This document shows positions 8,801 to 62,084 of a stretch of DNA of 64,000 nucleotides, piece after piece (the stretch's first letter is position 1; each line of letters opens with the position of its first letter). The notes below the pieces were generated by a model. The model had not been told where the DNA came from, searched no databases, and saw only the letters and a program-made list of their open reading frames with translations. The DNA is from Spirogloea muscicola. Taxonomy: Eukaryota. The stretch covers positions 741,502 through 805,501 of the forward strand of contig WELB01000021.1 of assembly GCA_009602725.1 (NCBI GenBank). The letters run 5' to 3'. A program made the position numbers and the translations under genes.

Positions 8801-9327
8801 GCGTGGGCCGTGGAACACTGGAGGGAGATGAAGAGGTGCATACAAAAGGCTAGCGAGCCAGCGGTGTTGACGTCGGCCTGCTCACCTCGCCTGCGGGACA
8901 GAGCACGTCGCGTAAGCCTGGCAACAAGTTGAGCAACTGGGACCCCAAAGCCCCGTGCACATCGACGGCTAGGAGGACGAACTTGTCCCCTGCCGGGTGG
9001 TCCCCTGCCGGCTGGTCGTCGCTTTGCTGCGAGCGCCGTTAGCCGCTGCATGGCCAGCCCTCGAGGCAGAAAGTATATGAACCAGCCGTTTGGTTAAGCC
9101 ACATGGCTCTGTTGGCAATACATGATATTTGGGACAAGTGGGCCCGGCAGGTGGCGGGCTGCCCTGCTGGGCAAGTGGCCCGCCCAGAGGCGGGCCCCCG
9201 CCCGTCCAGAAATACCCCTCGCCAGGATCCGCCCCGTTTAAGGCGAGGATCTTTGGCCCGCCGCAAGGCGGGCCATGGGGCGACCCGCTCACACGCCTGG
9301 GGGGTGGGTGGCACGGGAAAGCACGAA

Positions 9328-10640
9328 GAGAAAAGCGCGCCCATAGAAAAGAGGGGCTGGCCAAGCCAGCCCAAAAAAGAATGGACAATGTCCAAAGCCA
9401 AAGCAAGAGGAGCCGGAGAAAGGACTACACTACAACATACTGCAGAACACAGAAAGGATGCAGAGGAAAGCTCAGTACCCACGAGTGAGCAACATCAGGT
9501 CTGAGTAGCTCGCTGCAGGGAAAGAGGCGCTCCGCCGAGACCCAGAGGCGGCGGCATAGCACGGCCTGCGCGCGTATGGACGGCGTGGGCAAGGGAGCGT
9601 TGAAGCGATACGGCCAGGCGCATGCGGAAGACTTGTGCGAGCGACCCGGCGGCGTTGAAGCCGGGCATCGCCCCTGGCAGACCCGGCCGCCGGTCAATGG
9701 CCTGGCGAGCAAGCCGCTGAATGAGATCCAGCCAGCGGCTGCCGAAAGCCCCGTGTACATCCATCGCCAGGGCCGCGAATTCATCCCCCACTGGGTGATC
9801 AGCGTATTTTCGCTCCTTGCCGCGGGCCGCCTGGCCGACCGCGTGCCCTGCAAACGACGCCGATCTGGTGGGGTTGGCGGAGTCGATGCAGTCTGTTGTC
9901 ACCACATCAGCGATGATGCGGGACCGCCGCCGGGCGGGATTGCGACCAGGTCGGCGCGACGCGTATGGGGCTGGCCGTCCGCGCCCAGCTGGATGGGCAT
10001 GATGGAGGAGTTCTCCACCGCGACCTTGAAGCCCGCCTCCGAAAACACCCCCTGCATACCATCGCGCAGGAGGTCGTGGGAAGCGGTCCGCTCGCCCCCG
10101 TGTGCGCACCGGAGCATGTGGGCGGCCAGCTCCGCAGGATCAACGTGACGGGCACCGCACTCGCTTTGAGTGACGCCCACGAGGCAGGGAGGGAGGAGGC
10201 CCAAGAGCCGGTGGACCGCCGTCCGGAAGACCTCGTCGGGCATTGTGAGCGCCGCGTGGAGTGGAAGCGCCAATAGCCACGCCGCCGCCCCAGGGGAGGA
10301 GGCTGAGAGCAGTCGGGCGCGCCCTCGCAGGTCAGCCGGGGGGAGAAGCTCCACCACCTGGTCGGAGGCCGCTTGTTCAACCAACGCCGAGAAGCGTGCC
10401 TGGGCACGTCTGGTCTGGGGTGTGGGCGAGGTGGATGAAAGGAACAGCCTGTTCCGACATGCGGGGGTGAACTGCCAGGAGCCCGTCGCGGGCACGAGCG
10501 GAGGGCAACCTGAAAAGGCAGCTGACCGATCTCCACCTCAGCTGCCACCCGCTCCAGGACGCGCTGGCCGTCCACGAGGAACCTCTGGCTCATTGTGGCT
10601 GCCACCTGAGCCCAGCTACCCATGTAGGCCGAAGAGCCTT
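9328..10640 (-). mobile_element. Best-preserved CRE-like (RLE-clade) non-LTR retrotransposon fragment: post-RT region, zinc knuckle, restriction-like endonuclease and 3' UTR
   Basis: Frameshifted ORFs give SAYMGSWAQ (post-RT), ARLLSASSPGAAAWLLALP...FRTAVHRLLGL, a degenerate CCHC knuckle (ECG...HMLRC), and SHDLLRD, E, RRADL, IIADV, KERKY, FAALAMDVHGAFG (RLE pattern). It ends SYSDLMLLTRGY* (stop 9474-9472) followed by a ~145-nt 3' UTR. No RT core was seen. Confidence 0.85.
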
Positions 10641-10964: not shown

Positions 10965-11580
10965 TGCGGACCGCCGCCCGGCGCGGTGGCCACTAGGTCG
11001 ACCTGCCGAGTATAGAGTCCATCCGCCTTCTGCAGGATAGGCATGATGGACGTGTTTTTAGATGGAGCCCCTCCCTCTCATTGATAGTAACGAGTCTCCC
11101 ATGTCTCTGGACCTTGTTTACCCTAGCCTTCTTTGGAAGAGCCGCTTCTTCCTTCAGCTCCTGCTGGTGCCGTCCCGCTACTCACGACCGCGTGACTCTG
11201 CCTCCATTGTGCAAAGTTGGTTGGACTGGGGAAGCGCTGATACTTTCCATGACTCCGCGCTGGCTGAAAGACCGGGCCGAGGGGGCCATACATGGATGTT
11301 GACCCTCGCAGATGTAGGAAAAAATAAGTGCTCGCCCGTAGGAAAGAGAGGCTGGCAAAGCCAGCCAAAGAAAAATTGGACATTATTCAAACCAAAAAAG
11401 GAACAGATGCCGAAGAAGGAACTACACTACAAAGCAAACGACGATGCAGAGGGAAAGGCGGATGGATGCTCAGTATCCACAAGTGAGCAACAGCAAATCA
11501 GGATGTAGGAGGCTTGCAGCAGGCAGAATATGGATCTCGGCAAGTCTGCGAGTAGACGAGAGTCAGCGCTGTGACCACCT
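10965..11580 (-). mobile_element. Further CRE-like fragments (RLE piece 10965-11055; 3' end 11325-11580)
   Basis: TSIMPILQKADGLYTRQVDLVATAPGGGP matches SSIMPIQLGADGQPHTRRADLVAIPPGGGP of the neighbouring element. DLLLLTCGY* is followed by a UTR similar to 9330-9470. Confidence 0.7.
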
Positions 11581-15359: not shown

Positions 15360-16080
15360 GGGAGAGCGGAGAGAATGGAGTGTGTATTAAATGATGGAGG
15401 GCCTATGTGGCCAAGTACAAAGGCAAGCACATTGACATATGTACATCACCTGCTGCTAAGCTGACCCGCTCAGTAACCACGAGTAAGCACTTAGAGGTCG
15501 CTAACTGATGCCCGAATACCGGACGGCAATCGATCAGCTCATGTGCCACCAGCTAAGGCTCGACTAGCTTTCTGATGCAAACCACGAGCCTGAGCTCGCT
15601 GCAGACAGGGTGACACTTGACGTCGGAAAAATGACAAGTAGGCTGCCGGCATGCCCATCTGGGCTTGAAGCACATCCTCACGTCGTGAAAACCCCAGATT
15701 TGCGAAGGGGGGGGGGTGCGCACGAAATGAGAGGGTGGTGACCGAGCCAAGGAAAACGTTCGTCGCAGACCCTCTAGTTAGCGGCCGCAAGTCAGATAGA
15801 CTAGCCGCCGTAAAGCTGTCCCCTTGACGAAAGCCAGAGGCTGCACTAGAGCACGGCCAGCACGCAGGTGCAGACGCCCATAGAGAAAGAGGGGCTAGCA
15901 AAGCCAGCCCAGAAAGGAATGGACAGAATCCAAAGGCCACAAGAAGGTGCCGGAAAGAAAAACTACACAACGAGACACGAAAGACGCGAATGGAAGCTTA
16001 GAGTGAGCATACCCGAGTGAGCAACAGCAAATCAGAATAACTCGAAGCTGGGAAAGAGGCACTGCTTGCTTCTTCGCCAT
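15360..16080 (-). mobile_element. Stack of three CRE-like 3' remnants from different subfamilies
   Basis: 15360-15690 reads FRRQVSPCLQRAQARGLHQKASRAL...VLTRGY*. 15770-15870 reads AASGFRQGDSFTAASLSDLRPLTRG. 15880-16080 reads SYSDLLLLTR followed by a UTR like 9330-9470. Confidence 0.75.
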
Positions 16081-18599
16081 TGCCTTGCAATGGATAGAGC
16101 TGCTCGCCCTTCTTTCCCTTCTTACCCTCGTTCTAAGCTGCGCGTCAAGGGAAAGCCCGGCGTGATGGCAGCCCTCACCGCTGCGTTCGGCTCCGCCTGG
16201 GCCCGCGTTCGGCTTCTACGCGCCGTGTCCAGACCTCCCCACTTCGCCCCTTTCAAAGTCATATCCCCAGCTGCCTCCCTCGGGAACGCCGACAAGACTC
16301 GCACGCGGCCCGACCGGCGCAGCCATTGCGCGCGGCATTGCGCTATCACACAATAACTGCCGTCCCTTTCACTATAGGATTAGTGTTGTGCTACATTGAA
16401 CCAATGCATGCGCCTGACTTGGGGTTGGTCGTATGCTAGTGGAAACCGGCAGACCTCGCGGGTCGCTGCGACTGTGGAGTCCTCGGCAAGCGCAAGTGGT
16501 GGCTGCTGGCTCTTGCCGCGCTCGGCAACACCAGCAGCATCATCTCTGGCGTACTAATCATCCTGCAAGTACCTGCGGGCGCTGGAGTCAAGGAGCGTGT
16601 GCGGCCCTTCTATCTGCTATTTGCTGACGCAATTTATCACCAGCAGCAGCCCAGCTTACAGTCGCCATCGTAGGTAATAGCAGCCCGGCCTCTGCTTCGC
16701 CTGCAGTCAGCCTGGTCACTTCGCTTGTCGATATAAGCAGTGGACCCAGCAGCAGTAGTAGCAGCAGCAGCACAGGTGACTGAAATCAGAAACTCCTAGC
16801 AGCCCCTACCGAACGAGAAGCACGTGTGCTATAAGGTGGGACAGCAGGATGCTTCATGTGGAGGAGATGTAGCAACATCAGTAAGTCTGCTGAAGTCTAG
16901 GCGGTGGGAGAACAGGACCAGAGGACAAAGATGGCCTTTGTTTTGCCGACAACTCTAGGTGATGGTTGGTCCACTCTTTGCCAAAGCTTATATCAGTGGC
17001 TTGCGTGTGCCGGCCAATCTAGTTGTAAATTGAACTGCTGATAGTTGACATGTCCGGCAAGCAGGTTAAGTACGCCTGTCCTCGACTCTGATCACAATAC
17101 CGGCGATGCTGACAAGGTAAGGTGTGGTTGGCACCGCTTGCTGCGGCTAGGAGCGAGGCTTGGCCCAGATCTCCGACCCAGCTGCGGAGCAGGCTTTGGC
17201 GCAGACACAGGCTGCACTGGCGCCTGCCTCTACTACTCCCGGATTGGCAGGAGGCCTCCGGTACGTACATACTGGCAGAATCTAGCCCCAGCTTGCATCG
17301 CTGCGACCCTTTGTCTGGATGCAACATTACTACGGCCGGAACTCCCATTGGCCCAGACTGCTTCCCATGCGGGATGCTCGCCAACAGTGGTTGCAAACGA
17401 TTCCAAGCTGACAAGGGCAATGAATTGGCACTTTACCAGTCCTCAGCTCCCTGCTACCTAGGAGCCTCCATCTCCAGTATCTGTCTCCTGCTGGAGCCCA
17501 CCTCCTAGAATTTCACTACCAACCCCAGAGGATGACTGACTAGGGGCTTAGAAAGGACTGACGTCGCGAACGAGGCAGGAGGGGCCGCTCACTGCAACAT
17601 GTATACAGAATGGTGTATGGTGTACGGAATGGTGCATGGCCTGGGTCTCATCCGCCATTCTATATCGCAGGGTAAGTTTTTTACAAGGCCCAGCCCCAAT
17701 AATGACAGCGGCCACAAAGCAGCTTGGTGGCACAACGGCCTTTCTCGTTTTTGTGGCGTAGCTGAAAGAACAGCTACGACTTAGACTAGGTGCCTGCCAT
17801 TGACCCCAGGTTTAGGAGCGAGCATCTCCCACTCTTCCCCTCTTGTTAACCCCTTCCCTCCTAAGCATGATGCCCCTTGTCTTGCATCAAGCACAAGGTA
17901 ATGTTTCGCTAATGTTTCGAGTTAGAGCTGCTACTTACTTTTTAGGGGCAGTTGTGAATGCTAGCAAAATGCATGAGGGGGCGTCATCTTGCCCTTAACA
18001 CGTGCTACCAGCAACCAAACGAACGCCTCTCCGTAACCATTCACCCACTCTGTAATACGAATCTGTCCATCTTATGGCCGCTGACCAAGGGTCACTGAGG
18101 CTCGGCTTAGAGTGCTGCTCTTGCTTTGATGAGCATCCCTCGCTGGTGCTGCTCGCTCAACTTTGTCTCTTCTTTGGGGTTGCCTCTCTCAGCCACCTAC
18201 ACACTCTTGGATGACGCTTCCATCGCAGATCACCACCTTTCCACTGCCTCCTACTGCGGCCTTTCGAGATGTAGGTGAAGAGGGGCCGCACGCTCCCCGT
18301 GCCCAACCTCCGGGAATGCCTAGACCGAGTGAGGGTGGCCATGTGCAGTCGTTCCTTCTGATGGGAGACAGCGGGGTTGGGGGGAGGTGCTTCTGAGTAG
18401 GTAAGGCTGACGCCTTGAGTAGACAAAAATTTTCATGCAGTTGTTGGCTTTGAAGGCCAGCTTTATAAGAATGAACAGTGGCAACAGGGACGCCAGACAC
18501 AAAACCGCAAATTTACACCCAGTAGCATTAGTGGTTGCTATACAGCTGACAGCTATTATGGTATTAATTTGACGCTGGGTAGTGGCACGAGGCTAGGCG

Positions 18600-18757
18600 G
18601 AGGGGAATGCGCGCCCATAGAGAAGAGGGGCTGGCAAAGCCAGCCCAAAAAAGAATGGACAATGTCCAAAGCCAAAGAAAGAGGAGCCGGAGAAACTACA
18701 AAACACTGCAGAACACAGAAACCTTGCAGAGGAAAGCTCAGTACCCACGAGTGAGCA
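18600..18757 (-). mobile_element. Young 3' remnant of the 9328-10640 subfamily
   Basis: Near-identical to 9335-9490, including LTRGY*. A further UTR-only copy lies at 21790-21880. Confidence 0.8.
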
Positions 18758-20340: not shown

Positions 20341-22249
20341 CCCACGAATGCAGGGCACTAGCTTACCAGTCATTCAAAAATAACACAATTATGAAGCGGT
20401 TAAGAGGCACGCTCTGTCTGACCCAAACACTACACCCATACCCTAAGCCTTTACCAGCATTTAGACAGAAAGATTATGTCTTTAGCACTTGTCAATCTAG
20501 CCTGCCACCGAAAGGGGATCAGAACCGCAGCTTTCTGATGTCTCAAGGATGAAGAGCCACTTTCTCTGCAAGCAGAATCGAAGCATATCAGGAATTATGC
20601 AATCGAGTATCGGTTACCTGTGCCTGCAGGCTGATTATGCAGGCTGCGAAGCTCATGTAATTGAAGATGGTCACCATCATAGGTAGTCAGCACAGACGTA
20701 AGCATCAGGCTTGTCTGTGTAATATCTTTGTGAGCACTGCTGCCCGAATTGGACAACAACATTTGCTGTTCGTCAGACTGTGGTACGACATGTTCTTATC
20801 CAGTCAAGTCAGACCTCTGTAATTAATGCTCTAGGTAGGTGATTAAACCTTGACCCATCCATCACCTAATTCCTTAAGCCCGCTGCTCTGCTTCAACCCC
20901 CCCCCTTGGAAGCGGGCTCTCCATAGAAGGAAGTTCTGCAGAATTAGAATCTCACCGGGATCTGGAGGAATCACGCCCCAAAATGCCTGCCTCCGAGGCT
21001 GCCATTGGCGGAGTTGCAGTGTACGCCCTCTACCGGCGCGCTCGACCACCCAGGTAGGGGCCTGCGAGTTTGTAGGATTTTCTTTTCTGTGACCCACATG
21101 GGCGGCGCCAAGGGGGCTGTTGTAGGCCCCATCACCAGGGCTGTTGAGGCTCCAATTCACGGACTCGCGCCCGAATGGGCACACTGTGGGCGAGTCAATG
21201 GGGGGGGCCGCAAATGCAGAGAGGAATCTTGGCCAAAGATCCAAGAATCTCCCTGGAACCTGCGAAGTTACCCTGCTTCGGAGCGCCCATCCCGGGGGGC
21301 TGGTGCCTGGCCAGGTCACGAGACCGCCCGCACGGACAATGGGTTGTGTGTGACAACCAACGTACCTTATAAAGCACCGCATGGCCCATTTGACACCGAC
21401 CCTTCAGCTAGGCCCCCCGCAACCCACCCATCTTAGATATCCGCCCAAGTGGGGTGTCGCTCCCACATCCCCGCGATGGCCGCCGCAGAAGGCGCCGCCG
21501 GTCGCGGCAAAGTTTGATGCGTCGCCCCCCTTCGCCTCATTAACAGAAAGAAAGTGGCTCTCTCAATGGGGGCTCTCTTAATGGGTAAAATTGCACCATA
21601 TCATCAGATCACCAGCGGCTTGTACAGAGGAAGTCGGCGCTCTTAGTGATCAATTGCGCCACCCCGGCACGGCGACCCATTCACATTCTCTGAGCACGCC
21701 TTTCCACGAAAGCTTCATATCACGTGGCGATGCAACTACCACGAAGGTTGCTTGAGTCGGTTGCCGAGAAATCCGTGGAAAGAGGGAGAGAAGTGCGCGC
21801 CCATAGAGAAGAGGGGCTGGCAAAGCCAGCCTAAAAAAGAATGGACAATGTCCAAAGCCAAAGAAAGAGGAGCCGGAAAAAGAGGAAGGGCTCCCTTAGA
21901 GAAGAGGGGCAGGAAGTGGGGCGAGGGTTGTGAAAAGGCACTTCACAAACGAACGAACAAAGGGCAGCAGAACAGGGTTCAACACCCCCCATCCCGATGA
22001 AGCTCCTGATATCTTTAGACTGCCCACTTCGCGATGTGAAGCGCGTGCCGGATCTCGCGCAGTGAATCCCGCCGGAAATCGCGGTGCCGCCCTCGTGCCC
22101 GGCTCAAGCCGGGAGGGGGGCCGGTGGCGACGGCAGCGGCGGCAGTCGGCGGTCACAGTGGCCAAACGCCGGGGGGCCGCCGGCCTCAGGGCCAATAGTG
22201 AGGCGGGCACACGTGCCAGCCGGGAGGGAGGGAGGGAGGGAGACTGACG

Positions 22250-22318
22250 TACGGCTGCTGATATTTAAAGAGCGGCCAGATGCATACAGGTGTTCATGAC
22301 GGAGCCACAGGCTAGAGA
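22250..22318 (-). mobile_element. Short antisense CRE-like 3' UTR remnant upstream of the PstS-like gene
   Basis: The reverse complement, ctagcctgtggctccgtcatgaacacctgtatgcatctggc, is almost identical to about 54000-54040 and related to 6859-6960. Confidence 0.75.
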
Positions 22319-22460
22319 GGGAGGGAGGGGGCCCGGGAAGAGAGTAGGGGGAAGGGGGGGAGAGTGGGCGAGGCATGGGGGAGTGGAGAGGGAGGGGGTC
22401 GGGGAGGGAGGGGGGATGCATTTCCGGGTGCAGAGGGAAAGGGGAACAGTGACAGGGCCC
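22315..22460 (+). repeat. G-rich purine tract (potential G-quadruplex)
   Basis: More than ten runs of three or more G separated by short loops. Confidence 0.6.
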
Positions 22461-22539
22461 TGCGTGTATGAGGGCTCCCCAGCCACAGCTCTGCCACCCC
22501 AGCGCACTCGCCCTCCCTGCGCACCTCAGCCAAGCAGCC

Positions 22540-23709
22540 ATGGCTCGGCTTGCCGTTGCCGCCTTGGCCCTCGCCTGTGCCGTCTCCGCCTTTGCCGCCT
22601 GCTCCCCATCCACCGCCAAGTACTTTGGTGGCGCCACCTCCGTCCAAATCCTGGAGAACCAGGTCCTCTTCACCTACGGCACCTATGGTTGCTACGCCTC
22701 TGTCGGGTAAGGGTCTGACTACCCTGGTTTCCATTCGCGGTTTTCTTCGAGCAATACCTGCCAGAAGAGAGTCTGCCTTGTGGATGCATCCTTCATTGTC
22801 CTGACGACCGTCCGTCCATTCTGAAGGGGATCCCTTCCAATGCAAAGACTGATTGCCATGCATGTACCTTTTTTGGTGCCTGCCAGTTCCGGAGCCGGTT
22901 ACACCGGCTTCAAGGCCAATACCTACCAGGTTGCCTCATCTGACGCGGCCATGACAACCGCCCAGGAGAGTGGCTTGGGCTTCAGCAAGCTCACCATTCC
23001 TCAGGGCCTGCAGTCTTACTCCATCCTCTACAATGGCGGCACTCGGCTGGCGCTGTCTTGCCAGAGCCTTGCTGACCTCTACTCTGGCTACTCCGTCGCC
23101 ATTGGCGGTGGTGCCATTACTGTCCCAGTCGGTCGCTCCGACTCCTCCGGCACAACCTTTGTCTTCTCTTCCTACCTGAATCTGTGCACTGCTAGTGGTT
23201 CCCGCCCGTGGCCCGCGTCCAAGGTCGGCGAAACTGTCGCGTGGGGCTCCCCTCGCCTGGTCACTGCCGCCGGCTCCGGCGGCGTTGCTTCATACGTTCT
23301 CTCCCGCCCTGGTTCCCTCACCTATCTTGGTAATCCAGTTGCCGCTACCTTGGTTACCGGCAACATCCGCATCGCTTTCACAAACAACCATGCTGACCAG
23401 AACTACCAAGGTAGCTCATGCTTTGTGACCAGTGCCGTCCCCATATCTTTACCGTCTGCTACAGCCACCTGGTCTAAAGTCAGGACCATTTTCCAGCCTG
23501 GCTCCGGTGTCTGCCCTATGGTATCATTCGTCTACATCTGGGCCCGCAAAACATACCTCCCTGGCATTCCCACTGTTACTCAAACAAAAGCTTTCCTCAA
23601 CTTCACATACTCCACCTCCGGTCAAAACCTCCTCCCTCCCCTTGGCTTTGTAGGTGTACCCTCCAGCCTTCTCACCCAGAACAGGAATGCTGTTGTTACC
23701 ATTACATAG
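22540..23709 (+). CDS. pstS: Secreted PstS/DING-like phosphate-binding protein, 329 aa; exons 22540-22706 and 22887-23709
   Basis: Has a signal peptide (MARLAVAALALACAVSAFAAC). A phase-2 GT-AG intron joins the frames to give YASVGSGAG. The motifs GGATS, SVGSGAG, SSDAAMT, GRSDSSGTTFVFSSYL, GSGGVASYV..PGSLTY and PMVSFVYI follow PstS/DING order and include the phosphate-ligand residues. No stops. Confidence 0.88.
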
Positions 23710-24900
23710 TTTTGCACAATAACTGCTAGCCAGTTTGGTAAAATGACAGCTCAAATTTGATACAAATGAAAAAGTGAACACTGGTTGAACAATATGAAAG
23801 AATATTTTTTTCTGTGTAACAAAAACTCCAAAAGTTGACCAATGATGACCAATGACCAATGATACACTACAACAATAACGGATTGTACAAACGAGAAGTG
23901 AACAGGAGTCGAACAATATGAAAATAAATTTTGTAAAACACTATATTCTTCGAAAATTGACACTAAAATAAGAAGAAAAAAAAATTGTAAATATTAAAAC
24001 AATGTCACGGACATATGACTGTAACATTCCAACAATATTTAAGATGCATATGAATGAGTATATAACTATCAAAATCAACATAACAAACACGTGAAACATG
24101 AAACCTTTAAGCTAACACTCTCAGTAGACAAGCTAACTTGGTTTTAAAATATGTAATATTCAGAAAATTTGATTTTTTCAGAACTTCTTTAACAACCTCA
24201 ATACCATACATACATATGACACGCTACAAATATAATCAACTCAATGAAATGTAGTACACCTTTTAGTCGGCAAAATCTTCACCCAATACTAATATCTTAA
24301 CCAAAAAAAAGCACAACTGAGAAGTGAAATCTTCCAAATACAAAATTCTATCTCTAACTCGGTTACACAAGGATAGTTGACCATAAGGCAGAGTACGAAG
24401 CGAGAGTAGAAACTAAATGCTTCTATCCTATGGTCACAATCTTTGCAGTAACACGAATTTCCATTCTTTTTCCTTGAATAACAAACTATGAGGGGAATCG
24501 GTTAGATACGCCTTAGTAATCTTATCAATCACACCAGTATTACAGCTTGCAACCCTTCATATGACCGATTATTATGACCAAATCTTCAGCAGCGACCAAG
24601 CTACTTCATCATTACCGGATGTCATCTAGTCCGGGCTATACAATGCTGTTTCGCTGTAAATGCAGAAATCCTATCCTAGTGTATCAGATCTTTGGTTCTC
24701 ATCATAATCTCTTAAGGGTCTGCCTTTCTCATGCAAAGGATAGAAAATTTCAAATCGTTACATTGCGTCTATCGTATTGTGATTTTATTGCTAGGTACAC
24801 CAAAATTCAAAGCAACACATAATATCAACAATACTATCTGTACCAGTGGTAGCTGTTTAACTCCGCCTGTTACTACGGACCACTTTACAGGCCCGCAGAT
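23710..24900. other. Sharply AT-rich non-coding island
   Basis: Abrupt compositional switch immediately after the stop codon, with A-tracts and no credible ORF. No other part of the window looks like it. Confidence 0.7.
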
Positions 24901-25791: not shown

Positions 25792-25919
25792 GGCAGTGCA
25801 AATATTACTTCATGTGACCTGTCTTACCACGACTGCGGCACTTCACAACAGCTCGTGGTTGGTAATGGTTAGCTCCATGGTTCATCTTCTGAAAGTTACC
25901 AGGTTCAGCCCCAAGCTGC

Positions 25920-27585
25920 CTCCATCTCTAAGTTGCAACCGCCACTGCATGAATGCAAGTCCTCCGCCGCCACCCCTAGTGCCCCATGCCTTCCGGCCGC
26001 TATGGATCTCAAAGCCGGTCAACATGCCTGCGGCAGATCTCAATAAAAAAGGCTGCATGGCTTATGTGAGTTCACAACTGGCACAGCAGGATCACTCCAA
26101 GCGCACCATGGGATGCATGAGCTGCACGGGCAGGCCCTCCATGAGTTTGAGGTGCCGACGCATGTGAAGGTCCTTGACATGGGCATTGCTGCAGCAGCAG
26201 GAGCTGCATCAGCGACTGCAGCAGCCCGAAGATATGGTGAGTAGGTCTTGACCACTCTCTTGCCAGTGCTTCTTGACGCAGCTGTCTGGGAAGGCAAAGT
26301 TCGCTGACAAATAAGTCTGTAGGCGTGACTGAAGCTCTTCATTGGTATTGTGAGGCTTGGATGGAGGATGCAGGCGTTGGCCTGACTACCTTTGATACAA
26401 AAGTTATGGTCCTTGAAGCTACTCAGAGACCCTGCATGCTTGACCAGAGTTGCACTGAGATAGATGGATGGATTCTCAAGTGCGACTCAGATATACTTTG
26501 TCATCCTTGCCGATCTTATAGGCCTTCTTGCTGGCACAACTGATGAGCTCCAAACAGCTGCAAAATGGAAGGCTTCATGATGAGCTCCAAACAGCTGCAA
26601 ATTGGAAAGCTTCATTACTTCCATTGCACCTTTTGGAGATGCAATCTAAAGGGTCCAAGCTTCACCTGAACGGCCAGCTTATCCCTCTCTTGGCATACAG
26701 TCCGGGTGGTTGTGAGCTGTGATTGGTATGATGCGTTGCATAGGAACGGCATTCTTGGATAGCAATGCAGAAGTGCTATCAGGATGTCAGGATTCCTTAG
26801 TCAGCCGGGAATTATTAAGATGCCTGCTGCAGACTGTCTGACCAGTGCAGAGGCTTACTGGAGTTTAGGTCAGTGCTCAGTACTTGATGCCGAAGCACGA
26901 GGAACAGATAAACGTGACATTCCAGTAAGACCACCTTAGCAGCAAGCAAATGCTCCAAGGCGCGGCGACTTGGAAACCAGGCCTGCAGCCAGGTAGATTT
27001 CATGGAGCAGGTCATGCCATATATCCCATGATCGGCCCAATGTCCAATCGCAGCAAGCAAGTACCGATGCAGAGCGTGATATCTCAACAAGAGCAAGCTG
27101 CACTGCTTAAAGGACGCCTAGCCCTAGCATTTGTACATGGCAGAAGTATGTCAAATCGGCTTGTACCAGAAGTAGGTGAATCGGACGGTTATCTACAACG
27201 GAGCGCACTGAACTAGAAAAAGACGGGCATTTACAATCTATTGACGATTCTCGCAAATGATTGTGATAGCTTGTGAAGTCAAGGAAGCCAGTAAAGCAGG
27301 GGCGCCAGCATTCTTGGGACGGGTCAACAAGGCTGGGTCAACAAGGCTATTTTCCTATTTTCACCTGGAGCACGTTGTTACACTCGTGCTTGCAGCAGTG
27401 ATGCTATCCAAGAAGGAGGACAGGACCACAAGTGTCTGAGGTTCTAGATACACTGCCGTACTTGCCAATGTGGGCCTCCAGCACTCCAGAAGCATCAGGA
27501 GGTCACTATGAAGATGTGTGGCTGTCGCTCGGGCAGTTCTGCGGAGATGCCATGCTTTCACAAGTGTGCTGCCTATGCAGAAGAC
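25920..27585 (-). pseudogene. Unknown multi-exon family, copy F
   Basis: Exon 27585-27365 reads VFCIGSTLVKAW...VLSSFLDSITAA, then a frameshift, then ECNNVLQ|GT. Next comes GHWADHGIYGMTCS..WLQAWFPSRRALEHLLAAK. It aligns in DNA with 29400-31250. Confidence 0.65.
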
Positions 27586-29084
27586 CTGCCAGAGAGTCAC
27601 GGATAGACAGTGCACACAAGTTAAATTTGCACGGCCGGACCTCCCGGATGCTGGTCGTCACTCTTCGAGCACTACAATCTGCCCTCTGGTATGCGGAAGA
27701 GGGTGTCCTCTGGCATGCGGAAGAGGGTGCCAACTGGTTTATCGAGCTCGACGAGCATTTACACACCAGAAAGACAATGGCAGCTAGAGGATGGAGTGAC
27801 GTGTGCGACGACCAATGCAGATGTGAGCATTCAGCGGAGGTGCAGGGCACGTCCAGACGTCCAAGGGCCAGAGAGGCCATACCGGGAGAAGGAGGGCGAA
27901 GCCGAAGACCGTCCAGACCATGTCACTGGAGCGCGCGCGCCAGCGGGGGAGGCAGAGAAAGGCGTGCGGTGGGTGCGAAGAGGGCAATGCACAGCTCGTG
28001 GTGAAGAGAGCCAAAGGAGAGCGGGCGAGGGGACTGCGGCGGGCGATCTGAGGGCCGCCGCGGAGCGCGGGGCGTGGGAGTGCTGCTGCGCCTGCTCGAG
28101 TCCCGTGGCTTGGGGGAAGGCAGGAGGGATGCGCCGGAGTGCCGGCTGTTTTCTCTTCCTCCCCCCTTCCTCACTTCCCTGCAGCTTCCTAGCAGCTTCT
28201 CGCAGGCGAGGCGCTGATGGGGGAGGCGGCACCTGGGGGAGGCGGCGGACGCCCCCGCCCGTGCGGGCCAGTAAGGGAGGGCCTCGAGCTCCTCCCTGGG
28301 ATGGCCTTCGGACAAACAGCTCTTCCAATATAAGGCAGTGGCTGGGTAACGCCAGCCCAAAAGGAATGAACAAGGTCCAAAGGGCCGAAAAGCGCCACCA
28401 CCACACAGCTCTGCAAGCTTTTTCCACATCTGGGAATGGCTGCTGCTTGGAAGAAAGGGGCTCTCCTCATAGCTGTGTGGCTTCAGCGCCTTCGTGGCTG
28501 CTCAACAGGGCTGCTCACCCAGTGGCCACTGAGTTGCTGTGTGCTATAGTGCTTCTCTGGCCCCTTCACGCTCTGTTCATTTTTTTTTCTGTGCTGGGCA
28601 ATCACAGCCACCGCCCTCTCCCGGAAGAGTCTTCCTTCTCCTTCTGTCGGCCCTTGTGAGCTTGGCCTCTGACAGCCATTGCCTTATATTGGAAAAAGCT
28701 GTTTCCTTTTGACCTTGTCCATCCTTCTGGGGCTGGCTTTTTATGGCCCTCGCCCCCTTCGAAAGAGCTCTTAAACCACACAGTTAGGCAAAGTGGCTGC
28801 AGCGGACGAGAGCTTACTAACCCCGAGTCAGTAGAAGAAGCCCTCCTTTCCCAGCCCCTATTCTCTGTGGGCGCTCACTTCTCTCTTTCTCCTCCAACCC
28901 TCTCCTTGCACAATCTAGCATTTGAAGAAGCTTGCTACTGGAGAGCATCCGTGTCATACTCCGCTGGGCCCTTAGTTGGCGCCGGCGAGGCGCGCCGCCT
29001 CGGCCAGCGGGAGATGCTGCGCGCTCCTCCCCTGCAGCTAAGACTGAAGCTGTGCACATGCACCGGTGCGCACGGGGAAGAAGA

Positions 29085-29399: not shown

Positions 29400-31123
29400 C
29401 TGGAGGCACCCCGCACACGGACTGCCTCCACGTCTTGATTGCCACCACCACTGCATGAACGCAAGGCTTGCACTGCCACGACACGTGCCAAATGACACAC
29501 CCCCGCTATGGCTTTCAAATCTGGTCAACATGCCTGGGGCAGATCTCAATTAGATGAGGCTGCATGGCTGACGTAACGTGACAACTGGCTAAGCAAGACT
29601 CAATCCAAGCCCACACTGGATAAAATGAGCTGCATGGGCAGGCCCTCGATGAGGTGCCCATGCTTGTGAATGTGCTTGACACAGGCTTTGCTGCAGCAGC
29701 AGGAGCTGCATCAGCAACTTCAGCAGCCTGAAGAGGGGGTGAGTGAAATTTTGCCACCCTCTTGCCACTTCTACTTGAGGCGATGCTCTGGAAAGGCAAA
29801 GTTAGCTTGCGCTACAACCAGGTCTGCGGCGTACTTTTACCGGACCGTAGGCTAGTCACAGCATACAGTGACCTATAGGCGTGACTGAGCTCTCAAGCTC
29901 TCAATCGAGAAGTGTAAGGCTTGGGTGGAGTATGCAGGGTCTTGAGCTGACCACCTTTGATACAAAAGCAGCAGTCAGGTCCTCGATGCTACTTATTGAC
30001 CCTGTATGCTTGACCTGATAGCATTGAGGGAAGATGCGCGGTGCGCAATGAGATAGATGGATCGTCAGATACAACTGGAAGTCTAGTTCGTCCTCGTTGT
30101 ATGCAATGTATGCCTTTTTGATGGCACAGCTGATGAGCTCCACCAAGCTGCAAATTATAACAGTTCTCATCACTTCCAGAGTTGCACCTCGGAGATGCTA
30201 TCTAGAGGGTCATCAAGCGTACAGTACATCGGAAAGTGAGCTGAGTGACTAGCATCATGCATTGTAGGAATGGCATTCTTGGAGAGCAATGCACAACTGA
30301 CACCAGGATGTGATACTCCCGACTATTCAGAAATTCTCAAGATGACTTCTGTGAAATGTCTATTGGAAGAAAGATCTTACCAGTATTTAGATCAGTGCTC
30401 AGCTATTGATGATGCTTCTGAAGAACGAGGATGAGGTCCAGGAGATATCTCAGCAGGACCTGCTTAGCAGCATTCAGATGCACCAAGGCGTGGCGAGTTG
30501 GAAACCAGGCCTGCAGCCAGGAACATATTATAGAGCAGGTCATGCCAAATGTCCCATAATCGGCCCAATGTCCAACCACCAGCAAGCCAGTAACCACGAA
30601 GAGCGTGACATGTCAACAGAAGCAAGCTGCACAGCAAAAGGAGGCTCTGCCACAAGGAGCAAGCCCTTGCCACCTAGATTGTTCATGTCAGAAGTATCTT
30701 GTGCTGTGCTTGTACTATGAGCAGGTGGAACAGACGGTTACGTACAGCGGAGCATACTGAACGAAGAGAGACAACCATTACAAGCGCTAGACAATCATCT
30801 CGGAAGATCGTGATAAAAGCGTACAAGTCAAATGGTCGCCACTGTATGGGGGGGCGTCAGGGTGCTCGAGACAGCTCAACAAGGCCTATTTGAAGTGTCA
30901 CCTGGAGCACGGTGGTACACTCAGAGCTTGCAGCAGTGATGCTGTCCAAGAAGGAGGACAGGACTTCAAGTACCTCAGGCTCCAACAGCAGTGCCGTGTT
31001 TGCTAGTACAGCCCCCCTGTATTCCAAAAGCATCAGGAGCTCACTTTGAAGACCTGTGGCTTTCGCTCGGGCAGTTCTGCGGAGACGCCATGCTTTCAGG
31101 ATTGCCCTGCCTATGCAGAGGAC
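29400..31123 (-). pseudogene. Unknown multi-exon family, copy G
   Basis: Has an intact 222-nt exon, 31123-30902, with AG/GT borders (VLCIGRAILKAW...VLSSFLDSITAASSECTTVLQ). Downstream are GHWADYGTFGMTCS..WLQAWFPTRHALVHLNAAK, HTGSISSIEDLTAAFVSK and EICPRH. Later exons are disrupted. Confidence 0.65.
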
Positions 31124-33179
31124 CTGCCAGAAGATTCACAGAAAGACAATGCACATGAATGAAAGAATCTTTCAGTGGAGGGCTTAACTTGCATACATGA
31201 GCTACATTACGGCCAGACACCCCGAATGCTGGTCGTCACTCTTCGACCACATCGCTCATGACAGTGTCGAGGTTCAGTACAAAGCAACAGTCCAGATGCT
31301 GAAAACAGATGCCCAAGGGATAGTCACTGATACGACCCATGATGTTGGCTAGCTATGAGCTTATGAGACCATCTTGTGACTTGAACTTTGTTTGTTTGAT
31401 GGGGAGTTGGAGCTCATGTTGACTAGACTTATGACGATTCTTTATGTTGTAGAGAGTGCCAGCTGCCTGTTAGCAGCTGCATGCAGATGTAATTATCACT
31501 CACAAGCTAATGGTTTCCCGCCTAGCAACTGTGCCCACTCTTGAAACGGTTGTCCGTTGACAGTGTCAGCACAACTCAAGAACGATAGACTCGAGCGGTG
31601 GTTCCTTGTTGAGCTACTGCATGCTCTTCTGGAGCTTGCGAAATCTTCAAATTTCCTGCAACCAGTGAACCTGCTCAGACCACCAAGATAACGCACGACG
31701 ACAGCAACGTAAGCTGTCAGACAGCTGTCACGTCCAACATCTATTTAGCACAACAATGGCGGTACTTACTCCTATGGAAAGGTATGGCAAAGTGTACTTG
31801 TCGGCTTGATAGGGGGTCCCTCTCCCTCCCTTCGGCTTATCTGATGTTCTATTGCTGACACGGGGGTAATTGAGTGGTCCTGTTTGCCCAGCCTGCGGCT
31901 CCACATAGTGTAGATGCTCTCCAAAGTTTCTCCTCATGCACTCGGCTCGCTTTCAAAGCCGCCCCTGAAGAAGAGTAGCGGCCTTTGTCATGCTGATTAT
32001 TGATGATCTGGACGGTCTTCTGAGCCAGGTCCCAACCTTTTAGGTCTTCATTCCTGGTAATGTTGCGTTCTAATGACCACAATAGGCTCACGCACGACTT
32101 GACTCGAGTTAACCTTGAATGGGGGGTAAAGAATATGGAAGGCAGGGGACCATCATTGACACACCCAGGGACTTTGCTGAGGATCACAGATTCCTGATGA
32201 CCACCAGGCTAAATGTTGCACAGAAAATACAAGCTCTGAGGCGACCAGGACGTTGAAGTGGGGGAAATTCACACTATGGAAGGACAACATGCTAGCAGGT
32301 GTAGATTGGAGATGGAGGCTGGAGACTGGGGACTGTTCGAGAGTCGCAGCTAAGATGAGTTTCAACTTCTGCAGGCTTGTTGATTTGCACTTAAGATTGG
32401 CTCTGTGGTCTCTCCTCAGTGAACGGGCGACGTGTTTACGACTAATCTATAAGCAAGCGTGCAGATAGGCAGGGATTGACGGTGGTGCAAATGGAAGCTC
32501 CAAGTGTTGACAACATCATAGGAGCCTTTGTGGCATATTCAGTAGAGCTGGGGGTATCCTCTGCAGGCAGCTAGAGTGGTTGTGGAAGCACAGTGAGTGC
32601 TTCAACGAGCACAACAGCTCGTGCTTCAATGAGCACAAGAGCTCCCCTGGCCTCCTCTTCACAGGCATCGCGTCCGGCAACTGCTCACCCGTCATCCCGC
32701 TATGGCGGTAAGTTTTTGGTGAGCTCACAAATGGATACAAGCGGAGGGATGCCTATTTGAATTCTAGGTGAAGTCCAGCCTGCCTGCACACTAGCATTGG
32801 TTCCAAAACAATCTGAAACACTGTCTTTACAGAGCTAATTTTACTTGTCCGTCATTCATTGGCCTGCTTCTCTTTGAAGTGACATGCTACGCAGTATGTT
32901 TCCACACTCGCCCCGCTGCAAGTACCTCCTACTAGCTGCAGTTGACATCATTGGTTGTATGGGTCATCGTTTTCAAACCCCGGTAGAGAGTACTGCTAAG
33001 ACATGGACGAAATGAGGATGTGCTTCCGACTGAGATGGGCTTGCCGGCAGCACTTTCTTCCTCGCACCTTCTTGTGTCAGCCTGTTTGCAGCGAGCTAGG
33101 CTCATGCTTTGCACCAGAAGGTGGACGAGCTCTAATTGTTGACAAAGGGACTTTCGGTGTGCGCGAAACATTCTTGAGC

Positions 33180-36313: not shown

Positions 36314-37635
36314 TGCGCCTTCCGTCATCTGTATTTGCCATCTGGTATTCAGGAATCGCTTAGCGACCTTCATGTGTTGTCCCGTGCTTACTGAGCAGGT
36401 CAATTTACAGTAGGTAATGTACGTCGTTAAATGTTCTTGCCTTTGCACTTGGCCATTTTGGCCTTTGATCGTTTCAAATACACAAGGTTTTCCTTCCGAC
36501 CCTTTCAGACCTTGTTTGACCTTATTGAGTTGGCTCTCACAGCCATTTGCCTCGTGAGTTTATCTTTTGGGGTGCCCTGTCCCTTGCTGGGCCTCGTACG
36601 CCGCGACCACGCCGCGACGTAATCAACGCTTGCTGAGTACCTGGAATTCCGCGGGAATTCCAGGTGGGTGCACACCAGGTCGTGGCGCAGCCGCCAGAGC
36701 GTGGCGGCAGCGGCAGCGGCAGCGGGCCGCCACTGCCACCACCTAGAAGAAGTGGCTCCGTGCGCCTTCCGTCATCTGTATTTGCCATCTGGTATTCAGG
36801 AATCGCTTAGCGACCTTTATGTGTTGTCCCGTGCTTACTGAGTAGGTCAATTTACAGTATGTAATGTACGTCGTAAAATGTGCTTGCCTTTGTACTTGGC
36901 CAGTGTGGCCTTTGATCGTTTCAAATACACAAGGTTTTCCTTTCGACCCTTTCAGACCTTGTTTGATCTTATTGAGTTGGCCCTCACAGCCAATTTGCCT
37001 CGTGAGTTTATCTTTTGGGGTGCCCTGTCCCTTGCTGGGCCTCGTACGCCGCGATCACGCCGCGACGTGACCAACGCTTGCTGAGTACCTGGAATTTCCG
37101 CGGAAATTCCAGGTGGGTGCACACCAGGTCGTGGCGCAGCCGCCAGAGCGTGGCGGCAGCGACAGCGGCAGCGGGCCGCCCCACCGCCACCACCTAGAAG
37201 AAGTGGCTCCGTGCGCCTTCCGTCATCTGTTTTTGCCATCTGGTATTCAGGAATCGCTTAGCGACCTTTATGTGTTGTCCCGTGCTAACTGAGCAGGTCA
37301 ACTTACAGTAGGTAATGTACGTCGTAAAATGTGCTTGCCTTTGCACTTGGCCATTTTGGCCTTTGATCGTTTCAAATACACAAGGTTTTCCTTCCGACCC
37401 TTTCAGACCTTGTTTGACCTTATTGAGTTGGCTCTTACAGCCATATGCCTCGTGAATTTATCTTTTGGGGTGCCCTGTCCCTTGCTGGGCCTCGTACGCC
37501 GCGACGACGCCGCGACGTGACCAACGCTTGCTGAGTACCTGGAATTTCCGCGGGAATTCCAGGTGGGTGCACACCAGGTCGTGGCGCAGCCGCCAGAGCG
37601 TGGCGGCAGCGGCAGCGGCAGCGGGCCACCACCTA
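36314..37635 (+). repeat. Direct tandem triplication of a ~450-bp unit (starts 36314, 36761, 37212)
   Basis: Three near-identical units. Each begins with a CRE-like ORF end (LPSGIQESLSDLYVLSRAY*) and UTR, and contains a 27-28-bp palindrome. Confidence 0.95.
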
Positions 37636-59387: not shown

Positions 59388-62084
59388 ATGAGCGCCACCG
59401 GCGGCCGCNGGCGGTGGTGGCGGCGGCCTCGGGGCCCCAGCTGTGGCTGCCGACGGGGGGCCCCGCCTGCGCCCGCCTGCTGGCCTGCGCCCGCCTGCTG
59501 GCCTGCGCCGCGCTGGTCGTCATCCTTGCCGCCACCGGCCTGCCCTACCTTCTCGTCGGCGACGGCTTGCAGGTGCCGCCGCAGGCGACTACCCGCCACC
59601 CTGCCAGCCTCATCCCATCTCGGGCGCAGCCCGAGATGCTTCATGCTGAGCAGAAGGAGGCCCCGTCCCGCAGGCGAGCGGCGCGGCGTCGCGGGCGGCG
59701 GCGGCGGCGCGTGACGCCGCAGGACCGCCTTCCCCGTCTTCCGAGCCCACGCTGTTGGACGAGGAGCGCATCTCCACTGTGCACAGCGCCAAGGTGGGCG
59801 GCGCATCCTGCCGTTGCCACCGCCTAATGATAGCATGGCAGAAAGGCCTGCGTGCTGCCGGCGTGTCAGCTCGGAGCGTCTGCAGCGTCTGCAATGCTAA
59901 ACTCTAAACCCTAAACCCTGAACCCCAAACCCTCACCCTAAGTCGCTAAACCCTAGCTTATAAATGGCAGAGCGGCACGCTCAGCTCGTTGAAGTTGCGC
60001 AGCTTGAGCAGTGACCTCACCTGAGGCTGATTCCTTACCAATGCCAAGTAGCTCAACAGCGTCAGCTTCCGCGCCCTCTTGCAGTTCAACAGCGTGGCCA
60101 TCTGTCTTGTTGGCGGGGCGCGCATGTTTGAGCTCACTGGACCCACCATCAAGCAGCATGTGCTACGTGCGTTCGAGGCTGCTGACATCCTCATCAATGT
60201 GCCGGTGGATGAGAACACACACAAGATGACTGTCCTGCTTGGGGCACAAAACCTCGTCTCACTGCGCTTCTTCGCGCAGACGCCCATTGGGGACCTCGAC
60301 GCTGCAAAGGCCGTGCTCATGGCATCAGGGTCCCCAAACGGCCTGCAGGTGGAATACAGTAAGCCCTTATCCTGGGAGCACAAGATTTTCGCTTGAGGGT
60401 CTCGACGTCAGGAGCTGTAGATTTTTTCCAGATCCATACAGCTCTTCACGGACTGCTATTGTGTGCATGTCAGGCAAGTACGATGCCCTGAAGAACCTGA
60501 GACAATGATGTTTATGTGTCATGTCGAGGTTTAAGAGTTGGTGTGTTTATATTCTTCTTGTATATATTCTGCTCATCTGGCACTGCTCGCCCTGTCCTTG
60601 GGTGCCCGCCTGCCGCGCTTCTGCAGGGCCTGCTGCAGTATTTCAACCTCGTTGAAGGCTGCCTGAAGCTGATCAGCGACCGAGAGACAGCAGCTGGGGT
60701 GAGCTACAGTTGGGTGCTGCGTACACGTGTGGACACGTTCTGGACGGGACCACCACACACGTTGGCGGCGTACAGTCCACGCAAGTACACTGTGCCGCAT
60801 GGCTGCAGCTACGGCGGCTACAACGACCGCTTTGGCATGGGAGACATGAACACAAGCAGCGCTGCACTGGCGCGGTTGAGCCTGCTACCCGAGATCCAGC
60901 GCGCTGGCTACAGATCGCTAAACTCGGAAAGAGCATTTCGAGCGCAGCTGGAGGTGCGTGGCGTGGCGGTTGCAAAGGTTGACCTTCCCTTCTGCGTGCT
61001 GAGCATGCGGCGCTATGGCTGGCCGCGTGGCGTGCAAGTTGTGTCACTGAGCAGCCGGGGATTCATGAACGGCGCCAAGTGCCGGCCATGCAAACCAGCG
61101 GCCGTTGGCGACGAGGCACTAGCACTGGTGCGCGTCGTGGACGGCGATTGGGCTGACCACGGCGACGGCGTGGAATTGTGCGACCCACGTGGGCCCTGGA
61201 AAGCTGGCTGGGAGGCCATCTTCGATGCAGCGGCTGGCCCCGAGGCTGCTGCATTGCGCCTTGATGTCGATGCGCGGGGCTATGGCAGGTGCGTCACCGA
61301 GATGGCAGCCCTGCAGGGCTCCGCAGCAGCCTACGATGGCCCGACGCCGGAGCTGATCTGCCTTCACGGCCGTCTGGGCGCCACATCAATCACGGGCTCT
61401 GGCGCCGGTCAGTGGCCAGCCTTCCTCAACGGGTTCCTTGGCAACAGCAGTGTCGTGTATTCGGGTGGCATCGGTGAGGACCTGTCATGGGAGTCGACAG
61501 TACCCGGGCGGTACAATTGCACAGTGCACGCCTTCGATGCCACGCCGCTTGGCGCCCCCTCTCAGGAGCTCATTGGCGCGCAATTGTTGCCCGACAACGT
61601 TGTCATCCACGACGCCTGCCTGGGGGCGCACAACGGCAATGCGACTGTGCGCGCCGTGTTGCAATCTGGAAAGCCGGTGGGCACCTTCACAATACTGCCG
61701 GCTGTTGCGGCACCGTATGAGCTCGGGCCCCAGCAGGTTGCTGTCCAGGTGACGACACTGGCGGCGGCAATGGCTAGCCTTGGCCATGCCCGTGTGGACG
61801 TGCTCAAGCTGTCTGTGGAGGGGGCGGAATTTGAAATGATCGAGGCGTGGGGTGCAAGCGACGCGCCGCCGCGAGTGTGCCAGCTCCTTGTCTCCTTCGC
61901 GAGCAGGTGGCTAGGCGCACAGGGCATAGCTCTCCGTGATGCAGCAGTGACAACTCTGCAGCGCCTTGGGCTCGAACTTGTCTCTTGCGTGCAACGGGCG
62001 GCTGATGGCAGCCCCAGCAAGTGCGTCTTCTTGTCACCATCTGAGTGCAAGTCCGGCATGTTCCGGCACGTCATGGAGACGTGA
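59388..62084 (+). CDS. Type II membrane protein: plant uncharacterised, putatively glycosyltransferase-like domain fused to an FkbM/METTL24-like SAM methyltransferase; exons ~59388-59572, 59674-59793, 60085-60348, 60627-62084
   Basis: Has a TM segment (LLACAALVVILAATGLPYLLV). The motifs VAICLVGGARMFELTGP, SPNGLQ|GLLQYFNLVEGCL, RTRVDTFW, NDRFG and LNSERAF match a conserved land-plant family (from memory). The C-terminus has VVYSGGIGEDLSWE..CTVHAFD and VDVLKLSVEGAEF. Introns are phase-0 GT-AG. The start is uncertain because of the N at 59409. Confidence 0.85.
59897..59954. repeat. Degenerate interstitial plant-type telomere repeats (CCCTAAA) in an intron
   Basis: ctaaactctaaaccctaaaccctgaaccccaaaccctcaccctaagtcgctaaaccct. 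Confidence 0.8.

What the first reader, a model, noticed from the sequence alone, without database searches (positions are those of the whole stretch)
22540..23709. Intron-containing PstS/DING-like phosphate-binding protein gene in an algal nuclear genome
Seen: an intact two-exon gene with a signal peptide, whose intron splits the SVGSGAG motif, embedded among host repeats. It is therefore not bacterial contamination. Established: PstS is the substrate-binding subunit of the prokaryotic Pst ABC transporter, and DING proteins have been reported from plants and animals although their genes have been hard to find in eukaryotic genomes. From memory, GGAT, the N.Y after GSGxG, RSxSSGTT, YLNxC and GSxGV..TY look more like DING than E. 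coli PstS, and the phosphate ligands (T, S, D, R, S, G, T) are all retained. The signal ends in FAAC, which resembles a bacterial lipobox. No pstCAB genes occur in the window. Inference: a horizontally acquired, domesticated extracellular phosphate scavenger that works without its ABC transporter.
Basis: partly seen in the sequence, partly recalled or inferred. Interest (0 to 1): 0.85.

Follow-up and report, generated by a model that had tools for sequence, protein, structure and literature searches.

The report
Secreted PstS-like phosphate binder of algae
A gene split by a predicted intron, likely from a green alga close to land plants, encodes a bacterial-type phosphate-binding protein that is predicted to be secreted and likely catches phosphate in the cell wall; it likely belongs to an old algal family rather than being a fresh bacterial import, and it lacks the DING signature.

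Summary
The gene is real. Joining 22540-22706 to 22887-23709 across a GT-AG intron gives 329 aa that align without gaps, at 79% identity, to Spirogloea muscicola gene models. Splicing is inferred, as no reads were available. The protein is PstS-like: Pfam PBP_like_2, a PstS fold, and all phosphate-ligand positions kept. It is not DING (no DINGGG, about 60 aa shorter, DING structures score lower), and the lipobox idea fails. It is not a fresh import either. There are 24 Spirogloea models, plus relatives in Mesotaenium and Netrium and many unnamed sequences. They form a clade of soluble, basic, single-domain proteins that joins tandem, membrane-anchored PstS-like proteins, apart from the prokaryotic PstS sampled. 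A plastid origin and a separate transfer from Gaiellaceae-like bacteria were both rejected on a small sample. Algal PstS genes are already in print for Chlamydomonas (PSR1-induced) and diatoms (signal peptide, P-stress marker). I found no paper on this soluble, expanded zygnematophyte subfamily, some of whose paralogs have altered binding sites. Most likely role: wall-held phosphate capture feeding ordinary symporters (untested).

The parts
22540..22706 (+). Exon 1 (aa 1-55 plus 2 nt of Gly56): signal peptide and first phosphate loop GGATS
   Evidence: 52 of 56 aa identical to Spirogloea model P0023 (sequences)
22540..22596 (+). Predicted signal peptide, aa 1-19, A-F-A cleavage site (inferred by the -3,-1 rule, recalled)
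   Evidence: only hydrophobic peak; pLDDT <50 for aa 1-17 in the paralog model
22636..22641 (+). T33 and S34 = E. coli PstS T10 and F11 (F11 binds through its backbone, recalled)
22707..22886 (+). Predicted GT-AG intron, 180 nt, phase 2, with in-frame TAA at 22708-22710
   Evidence: paralog model spans and 56-aa unspliced models
22887..23709 (+). Exon 2 (aa 56-329 and stop): most of the two-lobed binding domain
   Evidence: PF12849 E 6.3e-9; TIGR00975 80.7 bits, cutoff 205; PDB PstS hits
22888..22944 (+). S57 (22888-22890) and D75 (22942-22944) = E. coli S38 and D56
23134..23154 (+). R139-S-D141-S-S143-G144-T145 = E. coli R135, D137, S139, G140, T141
22262..22529 (+). Possible promoter and 5' UTR: TATA-like TATTTAAA at 22262-22269 and an acceptor-like CAG ending at 22529, so perhaps a 5' UTR intron (speculative)
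   Evidence: sequence; acceptor scan
21777..21882 (.). Dispersed host repeat about 660 bp upstream of the ATG
   Evidence: blastn self-matches at 9316-9422, 18599-18695, 15875-15956 and 11326-11402

Best explanation
This gene encodes a PstS-fold protein with every phosphate-ligand position kept, which is predicted to be secreted, is likely held in the acidic cell wall or mucilage by its positive charge, and likely captures phosphate there for ordinary plasma-membrane symporters instead of an ABC transporter. Shown: gene structure in the DNA, family, conserved site, no membrane anchor, basic charge, expansion in Spirogloea and relatives in other Zygnematophyceae. Predicted: the fold (modelled on a 79%-identical paralog), signal cleavage after Ala19, and three disulfides (C21-C51, C114-C156, C234-C265). 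Inferred: splicing, secretion, phosphate binding, wall retention, induction by low phosphate, hand-off to PTB/PHT-type symporters, and descent from an ancient prokaryote-derived gene already present in early algae.
For: Family. Fold: paralog P0013 pLDDT 92.4, best matches PstS at Z 32.5-36.6. Site: T33, S57, D75, R139, D141, S143, G144 and T145 match E. coli T10, S38, D56, R135, D137, S139, G140 and T141; PMC7922408 gives the same eight-position site and names the Asp as the phosphate-specificity residue. No anchor: one hydrophobic peak. Charge: mature pI 9.3 with 7 acidic residues in 310, fewer than in any of 149 prokaryote-type homologues; 25 of 26 subfamily members have pI >= 8.5. Disulfides: C114 and C156 are lost together in P0003; the six Cys are confined to the Spirogloea rows. 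Age: relatives in Mesen1 (Mesotaenium, name recalled) and in a Netrium transcriptome; subfamily A 100/99, A plus intermediate plus tandem-anchored groups 96/85, eukaryote-type side against the rest 99/94. Analogy: Chlamydomonas PSTS rises up to 7.9-fold on PSR1 over-expression; diatom pstS tracks low phosphate; one bacterial replicon has pstS beside a Na/Pi symporter with no annotated pstCAB in 16 kb.
Against: No expression, secretion or binding data for this gene. No P1BS motif (recalled GNATATNC) within 2.7 kb upstream of the ATG; 3 matches in the window against 7.1 expected by chance. High pI is not unique: 40 of 149 prokaryote-type homologues reach 9.3. A soluble binder cannot raise free phosphate by itself; without a hand-off it only buffers pulses (physical reasoning). 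10 of 26 subfamily members, against 4 of 36 prokaryote-type rows, have lost at least one of seven ligand positions, so the family may be drifting to other jobs. This copy has a longer end branch than P0001 and P0002 (0.16 against 0.075 and 0.045). The model was folded on an alignment dominated by PstS homologues. Most tree rows are unnamed; calling the tandem group eukaryotic is my inference from architecture. pstCAB elsewhere in the genome could not be searched.
Confidence: 0.55

Rival explanations
1. The protein binds phosphate outside the cell but works as the soluble sensing partner of a surface receptor, reporting external phosphate rather than supplying it.
For: Its relatives include tandem PstS domains with a C-terminal membrane helix, some fused to Kelch or Fea1 domains. 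Bacterial PstS also takes part in sensing (PMC11528361). Two unchecked notes of this scan describe membrane-tethered eukaryotic PstS domains as receptor-like (leads only).
Against: No anchor or signalling domain here. A 24-model expansion fits a bulk product better than a sensor. No partner is known.
Confidence: 0.15
2. The family has become a cell-wall or mucilage protein with other jobs (binding other oxyanions or phosphorylated or sulfated polymers, adhesion, mineral control), and phosphate uptake is not its main role.
For: 10 of 26 subfamily members have changed ligand positions; paralog P0003 has D75T, S143A and T145A yet is full length. Very basic surface. Bacterial PstS and DING moonlight in adhesion (PMC7922408).
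Against: This copy and four of the five full-length Spirogloea models keep the whole site. Other algal pstS genes follow phosphate status.
Confidence: 0.17
3. This particular copy is a silent or decaying duplicate in a fast-turning gene family.
For: 19 of 24 Spirogloea models found are partial, over-spliced or chimeric with repeats. This copy diverges faster than P0001 and P0002. No identical model was among those retrieved (best full-length identity 79%).
Against: Open frame over 329 codons, canonical splice sites, all ligand positions and six mature-chain Cys kept, and C-rich third positions like a coding gene.
Confidence: 0.08
4. One reading: a DING-like protein, or a recent lineage-specific transfer from bacteria that kept a lipoprotein signal.
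For: Prokaryotic-type family; GGAT resembles DING's GGGAT; extra Cys as in DING; an early tree with few eukaryote-type rows put it near a Gaiellaceae-like group (SH-aLRT 96).
Against: No DINGGG; mature 310 aa against 372-378 for DING chains; DING absent from the sequence hits and lower by fold. Best prokaryotic identities are only about 30%. With more eukaryote-type rows the Gaiellaceae-like grouping is rejected (p-AU 0.005). A canonical lipobox pattern is found in 1 of 26 members and not in this one.
Confidence: 0.05

Closest known systems
Prokaryotic PstS (TIGR00975, PF12849; E. coli 1ixh/2abh, M. tuberculosis PstS-1 1pc3/7dm1, cyanophage 7xg7/7xg8)
   Same: Fold (Z 32.5-36.6, rmsd 1.9-2.5 A over 287-297 residues), length, and the phosphate-ligand positions.
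   Different: About 21-33% identity, below the TIGR00975 cutoff; intron; no pstCAB operon in the window; GGATSV in place of GAGATFP; six mature-chain Cys; very few acidic residues.
Algal PstS-like genes in print: Chlamydomonas PSTS Cre01.g044300 (PMC10413257) and diatom PstS cluster A03NE22, e.g. Phaeodactylum JGI 44639 (PMC3237598)
   Same: PstS-type genes of eukaryotic algae. The diatom cluster has a signal peptide, a prokaryote outgroup and a green gene-sharing partner. Linked to phosphate stress.
   Different: Their sequences were not in hand, so orthology is untested. The unnamed group I take to include such proteins is tandem and membrane-anchored, whereas this one is single-domain, soluble, basic and highly duplicated.
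DING proteins (PfluDING 2q9t/4f1u, HPBP 2v3q)
   Same: Same superfamily and phosphate site; extracellular; extra cysteines.
   Different: No DINGGG N-terminus, about 60 aa shorter, 22-24% structural-alignment identity against the 70-80% that defines true DINGs (PMC7922408).
Automatic gene models SM000365S13721/13725 and SM000014S00249/250 (Spirogloea muscicola), ME000013S00800 (Mesen1)
   Same: Same subfamily; 79% identity to the Spirogloea models, same length and inferred single intron.
   Different: Public but carry no functional name in the sources seen; no paper on them was found.

Membership tests
PstS / PBP_like_2 phosphate-binding superfamily | PF12849 match above the gathering score | tested here: met
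   36.4 bits against 27, exon 2 alone
PstS / PBP_like_2 phosphate-binding superfamily | Two-lobed Venus-flytrap fold | tested here: met
   model of the 79%-identical paralog P0013, pLDDT 92.4; top matches are PstS
PstS / PBP_like_2 phosphate-binding superfamily | Eight-position phosphate site | tested here: met
   7 identical to E. coli; the F11 position is S
PstS / PBP_like_2 phosphate-binding superfamily | Binds inorganic phosphate | not testable with these tools
   needs a binding assay
Bacterial PstS equivalog (Pst ABC subunit) | TIGR00975 score above cutoff | tested here: not met
   80.7 bits against 205, exon 2 only
Bacterial PstS equivalog (Pst ABC subunit) | Works with PstC/A/B | tested here: inconclusive
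   no match in the 64-kb window with ORFs from eight pstS loci as queries; rest of the genome not held
DING | DINGGG N-terminus | tested here: not met
   the N-terminal loop reads YFGGATSV; definition from PMC7922408
DING | 70-80% identity to other DINGs | tested here: not met
   22-24% in structural alignments to DING chains; no DING chain among 20 PDB sequences matched at E<=1
DING | Four protruding loops (about 375 aa) | tested here: not met
   mature length 310 aa against 372-378 for DING chains; target-normalised TM 0.62-0.65 against 0.74-0.85 for the PstS chains ranked above them
DING | Two conserved disulfides | tested here: inconclusive
   six mature-chain Cys, but confined to the Spirogloea rows; not mapped onto DING Cys because no DING sequence was in hand
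Bacterial lipoprotein | Lipobox [LVI][ASTVIG][GASN]C (recalled) with conserved Cys | tested here: not met
   FAAC does not match; the pattern is found in 1 of 26 members and C21 in 3 of 26
Eukaryotic algal PstS-like proteins | Nuclear, spliced gene in a eukaryote-type clade | tested here: met
   intron inferred; clade support; named members from three zygnematophyte sources
Eukaryotic algal PstS-like proteins | Orthology to Chlamydomonas or diatom PstS | not tested
   their sequences could not be identified among the unnamed hits
Eukaryotic algal PstS-like proteins | Induced by phosphate starvation | not testable with these tools
   no expression data in hand; no nearby P1BS

The most novel reading that the evidence does not exclude
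The algal sisters of land plants run an undescribed wall-bound phosphate-capture system. An ancient prokaryote-derived PstS shed its membrane anchor, became strongly basic, was amplified to dozens of copies in Spirogloea, and feeds non-ABC symporters, while paralogs with rewired pockets bind other anions. It would be a terrestrial-nutrition strategy that land plants later dropped (their lack of it is recalled, not tested).
Probability: 0.3. Interest if true: 0.65.

Novelty: new variant of a known kind. Interest (0 to 1): 0.38.

Why it matters
How the first land-going algae gathered phosphate is an open question. The review PMC11528361 mentions PstS once, in its bacterial section. A secreted binder that works without an ABC transporter would add a missing piece and is easy to test with recombinant protein and starved cultures. 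Natural pocket variants such as P0003 would also probe how PstS tells phosphate from other oxyanions. It does not solve the missing-DING-gene puzzle, and a eukaryotic PstS is not in itself new.

Tried and rejected
No genome is held for the window, so there was no genome-wide pstCAB search. The look-up of sequencing runs: no RNA holder listed. Word-indexed protein searches made the family look confined to Spirogloea plus one unnamed protein; the full HMMER search overturned this. One search missed even the Spirogloea relatives, which shows how limited those searches are. The first tree hinted at a Gaiellaceae-like donor; this was rejected with more rows (p-AU 0.005; the hypothesis was taken from that earlier tree). 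Plastid origin was rejected (p-AU 0.002), but with only three cyanobacterial-type rows, one of them named. Scans of metagenome, genome and viral contigs found only ordinary prokaryotic pstS at 26-34% (8 loci and 1 locus) or nothing. 4 of 21 genomes drawn from the phylum of handle G001 matched, which was uninformative. A DINGGG pattern scan of viral contigs, run to obtain DING sequences, gave 51 loci and none with a PstS-type match, so DING is not in the trees. The ESM Atlas gave only generic PBP clusters. P1BS and sigma-70 scans gave nothing above chance. Contamination was rejected on the intron, repeats and neighbouring genes. The Spirogloea genome paper (PMID 31730849) and the plant HGT survey (PMID 35235827) are not held; their supplements may list this family. 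No complex prediction was run, as no partner is known.

Full report
Observation. Exon 1 runs 22540-22706, a 180-nt GT-AG intron 22707-22886 and exon 2 22887-23709, giving 329 aa. Unspliced, the frame stops at once in a TAA at 22708. The donor is the only GT[AG]AG site in 22201-23710. The junction rebuilds GSG, nearly invariant in 143 prokaryote-type homologues. The spliced product aligns without gaps at 79% to Spirogloea muscicola model P0013. Of 24 Spirogloea models found I checked the spans of 17: 11 imply 209-252 nt of intron, one 302, two 430, and three are 56-aa unspliced stubs ending at the same TAA position. Splicing of this copy is inferred, since no reads were in hand.

Host context. 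The window holds WRKY (43785-44678, minus) and DUF7796 (60501-62081) matches among 29 long frames scanned, dispersed repeats, one of them 660 bp upstream of the ATG, and a CTAAACC array. Repeat-derived parts of two chimeric Spirogloea models also hit repeats in this window. The closest named relatives are Spirogloea muscicola (Zygnematophyceae), so the host is likely Spirogloea or close to it. No identical model was among those retrieved. ORFs from eight prokaryotic pstS loci, including three ABC ATPases, matched nothing in the window but this gene.

Protein. Exon 2 passes Pfam PBP_like_2 and scores 80.7 bits on TIGR00975, below its cutoff of 205. All 17 PDB sequence hits are phosphate-binding proteins of the PstS type. 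A family profile at E<=1 matched 20 sequences, none of them DING. AlphaFold2 of paralog P0013 on a 148-row alignment gave pLDDT 92.4. Foldseek ranks PstS first and DING from rank 20; VIA-align gives PstS Z 32.5-36.6 and DING 29.1-29.8. The alignment was PstS-rich, which may bias this, but the missing DINGGG and the 60-residue length gap are direct. T33, S57, D75, R139, D141, S143, G144 and T145 align to E. coli T10, S38, D56, R135, D137, S139, G140 and T141, and F11 is S34 (E. coli numbering assumes a 25-aa signal; the ligand list is recalled and agrees with the eight-residue site in PMC7922408). There is one hydrophobic segment, at the N-terminus. The mature chain has pI 9.3 and 7 acidic residues in 310, fewer than any of 149 prokaryote-type homologues, though 40 of those are as basic. 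FAAC misses the canonical lipobox; C21 occurs in 3 of 26 subfamily members, the same three that have C51, and C114 and C156 vanish together in P0003. Three disulfides are the simpler reading (inferred; distances were not measured).

Family. Two word-indexed searches and their cluster look-ups gave 24 Spirogloea models, five of them full length. The full HMMER search found 2681 representatives at E<=0.001 and 44 at <=1e-30, and listed 150. By motif and architecture the eukaryote-type hits fall into A (single domain, GGATSV, basic, no anchor), I (GSGATTV; Spirogloea, Netrium) and B (tandem domains, GSGTTNP, mostly with a C-terminal membrane helix; unnamed).

Trees. I used 93 rows (FastTree) and 48 rows (IQ-TREE LG+C20), chosen by hand from about 290 candidates; labels of unnamed rows are mine. 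In one search, A has support 100/99, I 99/96, B 99/96, A+I+B 96/85, and these with two further rows (P0203, P0278) stand against the other 24 at 99/94. Holding A with Gaiellaceae-like PstS is rejected (p-AU 0.005; hypothesis drawn from the earlier tree). Holding all eukaryote-type rows with three cyanobacterial-type PstS is rejected (p-AU 0.002). The trees are unrooted, branches are long, DING is absent and prokaryotes are thinly sampled, so no donor can be named. What they support is an old eukaryote-type family, not a recent transfer into one alga. In A, 16 of 26 keep all seven scored ligand positions, against 32 of 36 prokaryote-type rows. B scores 0 of 19, almost wholly because it has Ser for the Gly (18 of 19).

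Literature. PMC3237598 (one passage, part 1 of section 7, supplement search): diatom PstS cluster A03NE22, two proteins, signal peptide, prokaryote outgroup, green partner. [quoted passage not shown] PMC11409870 (passage): PstS listed among transporters of picophytoplankton genomes. PMC7922408 (passages, section 2): DING definition. PMC11528361, PMC3429862, PMC3322482 and PMC8465370 (passages) had nothing on this family. Ten searches listed no paper on a zygnematophyte PstS; 'Spirogloea' with 'PstS' gave 0 and 'Zygnematophyceae' with 'phosphate' and 'PstS' gave 2, one read in passages (PstS only in its bacterial section) and one seen as a listing. The two most relevant subscription papers are not held, and their supplements may list the family. 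Two earlier AI notes point to membrane-tethered PstS domains in other protists; these are leads only.

Mechanism. Most likely (0.55) the protein is secreted, sticks to the polyanionic wall or mucilage, closes on phosphate as PstS does, and releases it near plasma-membrane symporters, buffering pulses in a wet-dry habitat (habitat and wall chemistry recalled). One bacterial replicon with pstS next to a Na/Pi symporter and no annotated pstCAB in 16 kb shows such pairing may exist; it is a single case. Against this: no nearby P1BS, no expression data, and a binder without an energised hand-off cannot concentrate free phosphate. Rivals are a sensing role (0.15), a wall protein with shifted ligand (0.17), a silent duplicate (0.08), and the DING or recent-transfer reading (0.05).

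Verdict. Observation confirmed; interpretation partly supported. Eukaryotic algal PstS is a known kind. The soluble, basic subfamily, expanded and Cys-rich in Spirogloea, is a variant I could not find described. Interest 0.38; if the wall-capture system is shown (probability 0.3), 0.65.

Noticed in passing
P0003 (SM000336S12813), P0016, P0017: Spirogloea paralogs with altered phosphate sites: full-length P0003 has D75T, S143A and T145A and loses the C114/C156 pair; P0016 has D75V and P0017 T33D.
   Followed up: partly
window 43785-44678 (-): WRKY domain with the WRKYGKK variant (Pfam E 1.6e-22).
   Followed up: no
window 60501-62081 (+): DUF7796 frame (E 1.7e-88) with a weak FkbM methyltransferase match downstream.
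   Followed up: no
window 59897-59955: 8.4 degenerate copies of CTAAACC, a rotation of the plant telomere unit (recalled), inside the window.
   Followed up: no
window 36314-37633; 25916-27616 and 29422-31155: A 451-bp tandem repeat (2.9 copies, 95%) and a 1.7-kb direct duplicate at 68% identity, probably mobile-element remains.
   Followed up: no
L072:6741-9692 (NZ_CP119567.1): Pararhizobium replicon with pstS directly followed by a Na/Pi symporter gene and no annotated pstCAB in 16 kb.
   Followed up: partly
P0180, P0266, P0288: PstS-like domains fused to Kelch propellers, and to Fea1 plus somatomedin B, in unnamed eukaryote-type proteins.
   Followed up: no
P0311, P0240, P0226: Unnamed rows that lie nearest the eukaryote-type branch in the trees; leads for the donor question.
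   Followed up: partly
L016-L066: An internal DINGGGAT string occurs in a family of about 350-aa viral-contig proteins with no PstS-type match, so the DING motif alone can mislead.
   Followed up: partly
P0005 and P0021 (s144): Two overlapping Spirogloea models on opposite strands suggest an inverted duplicate of exon 1 at that locus.
   Followed up: no
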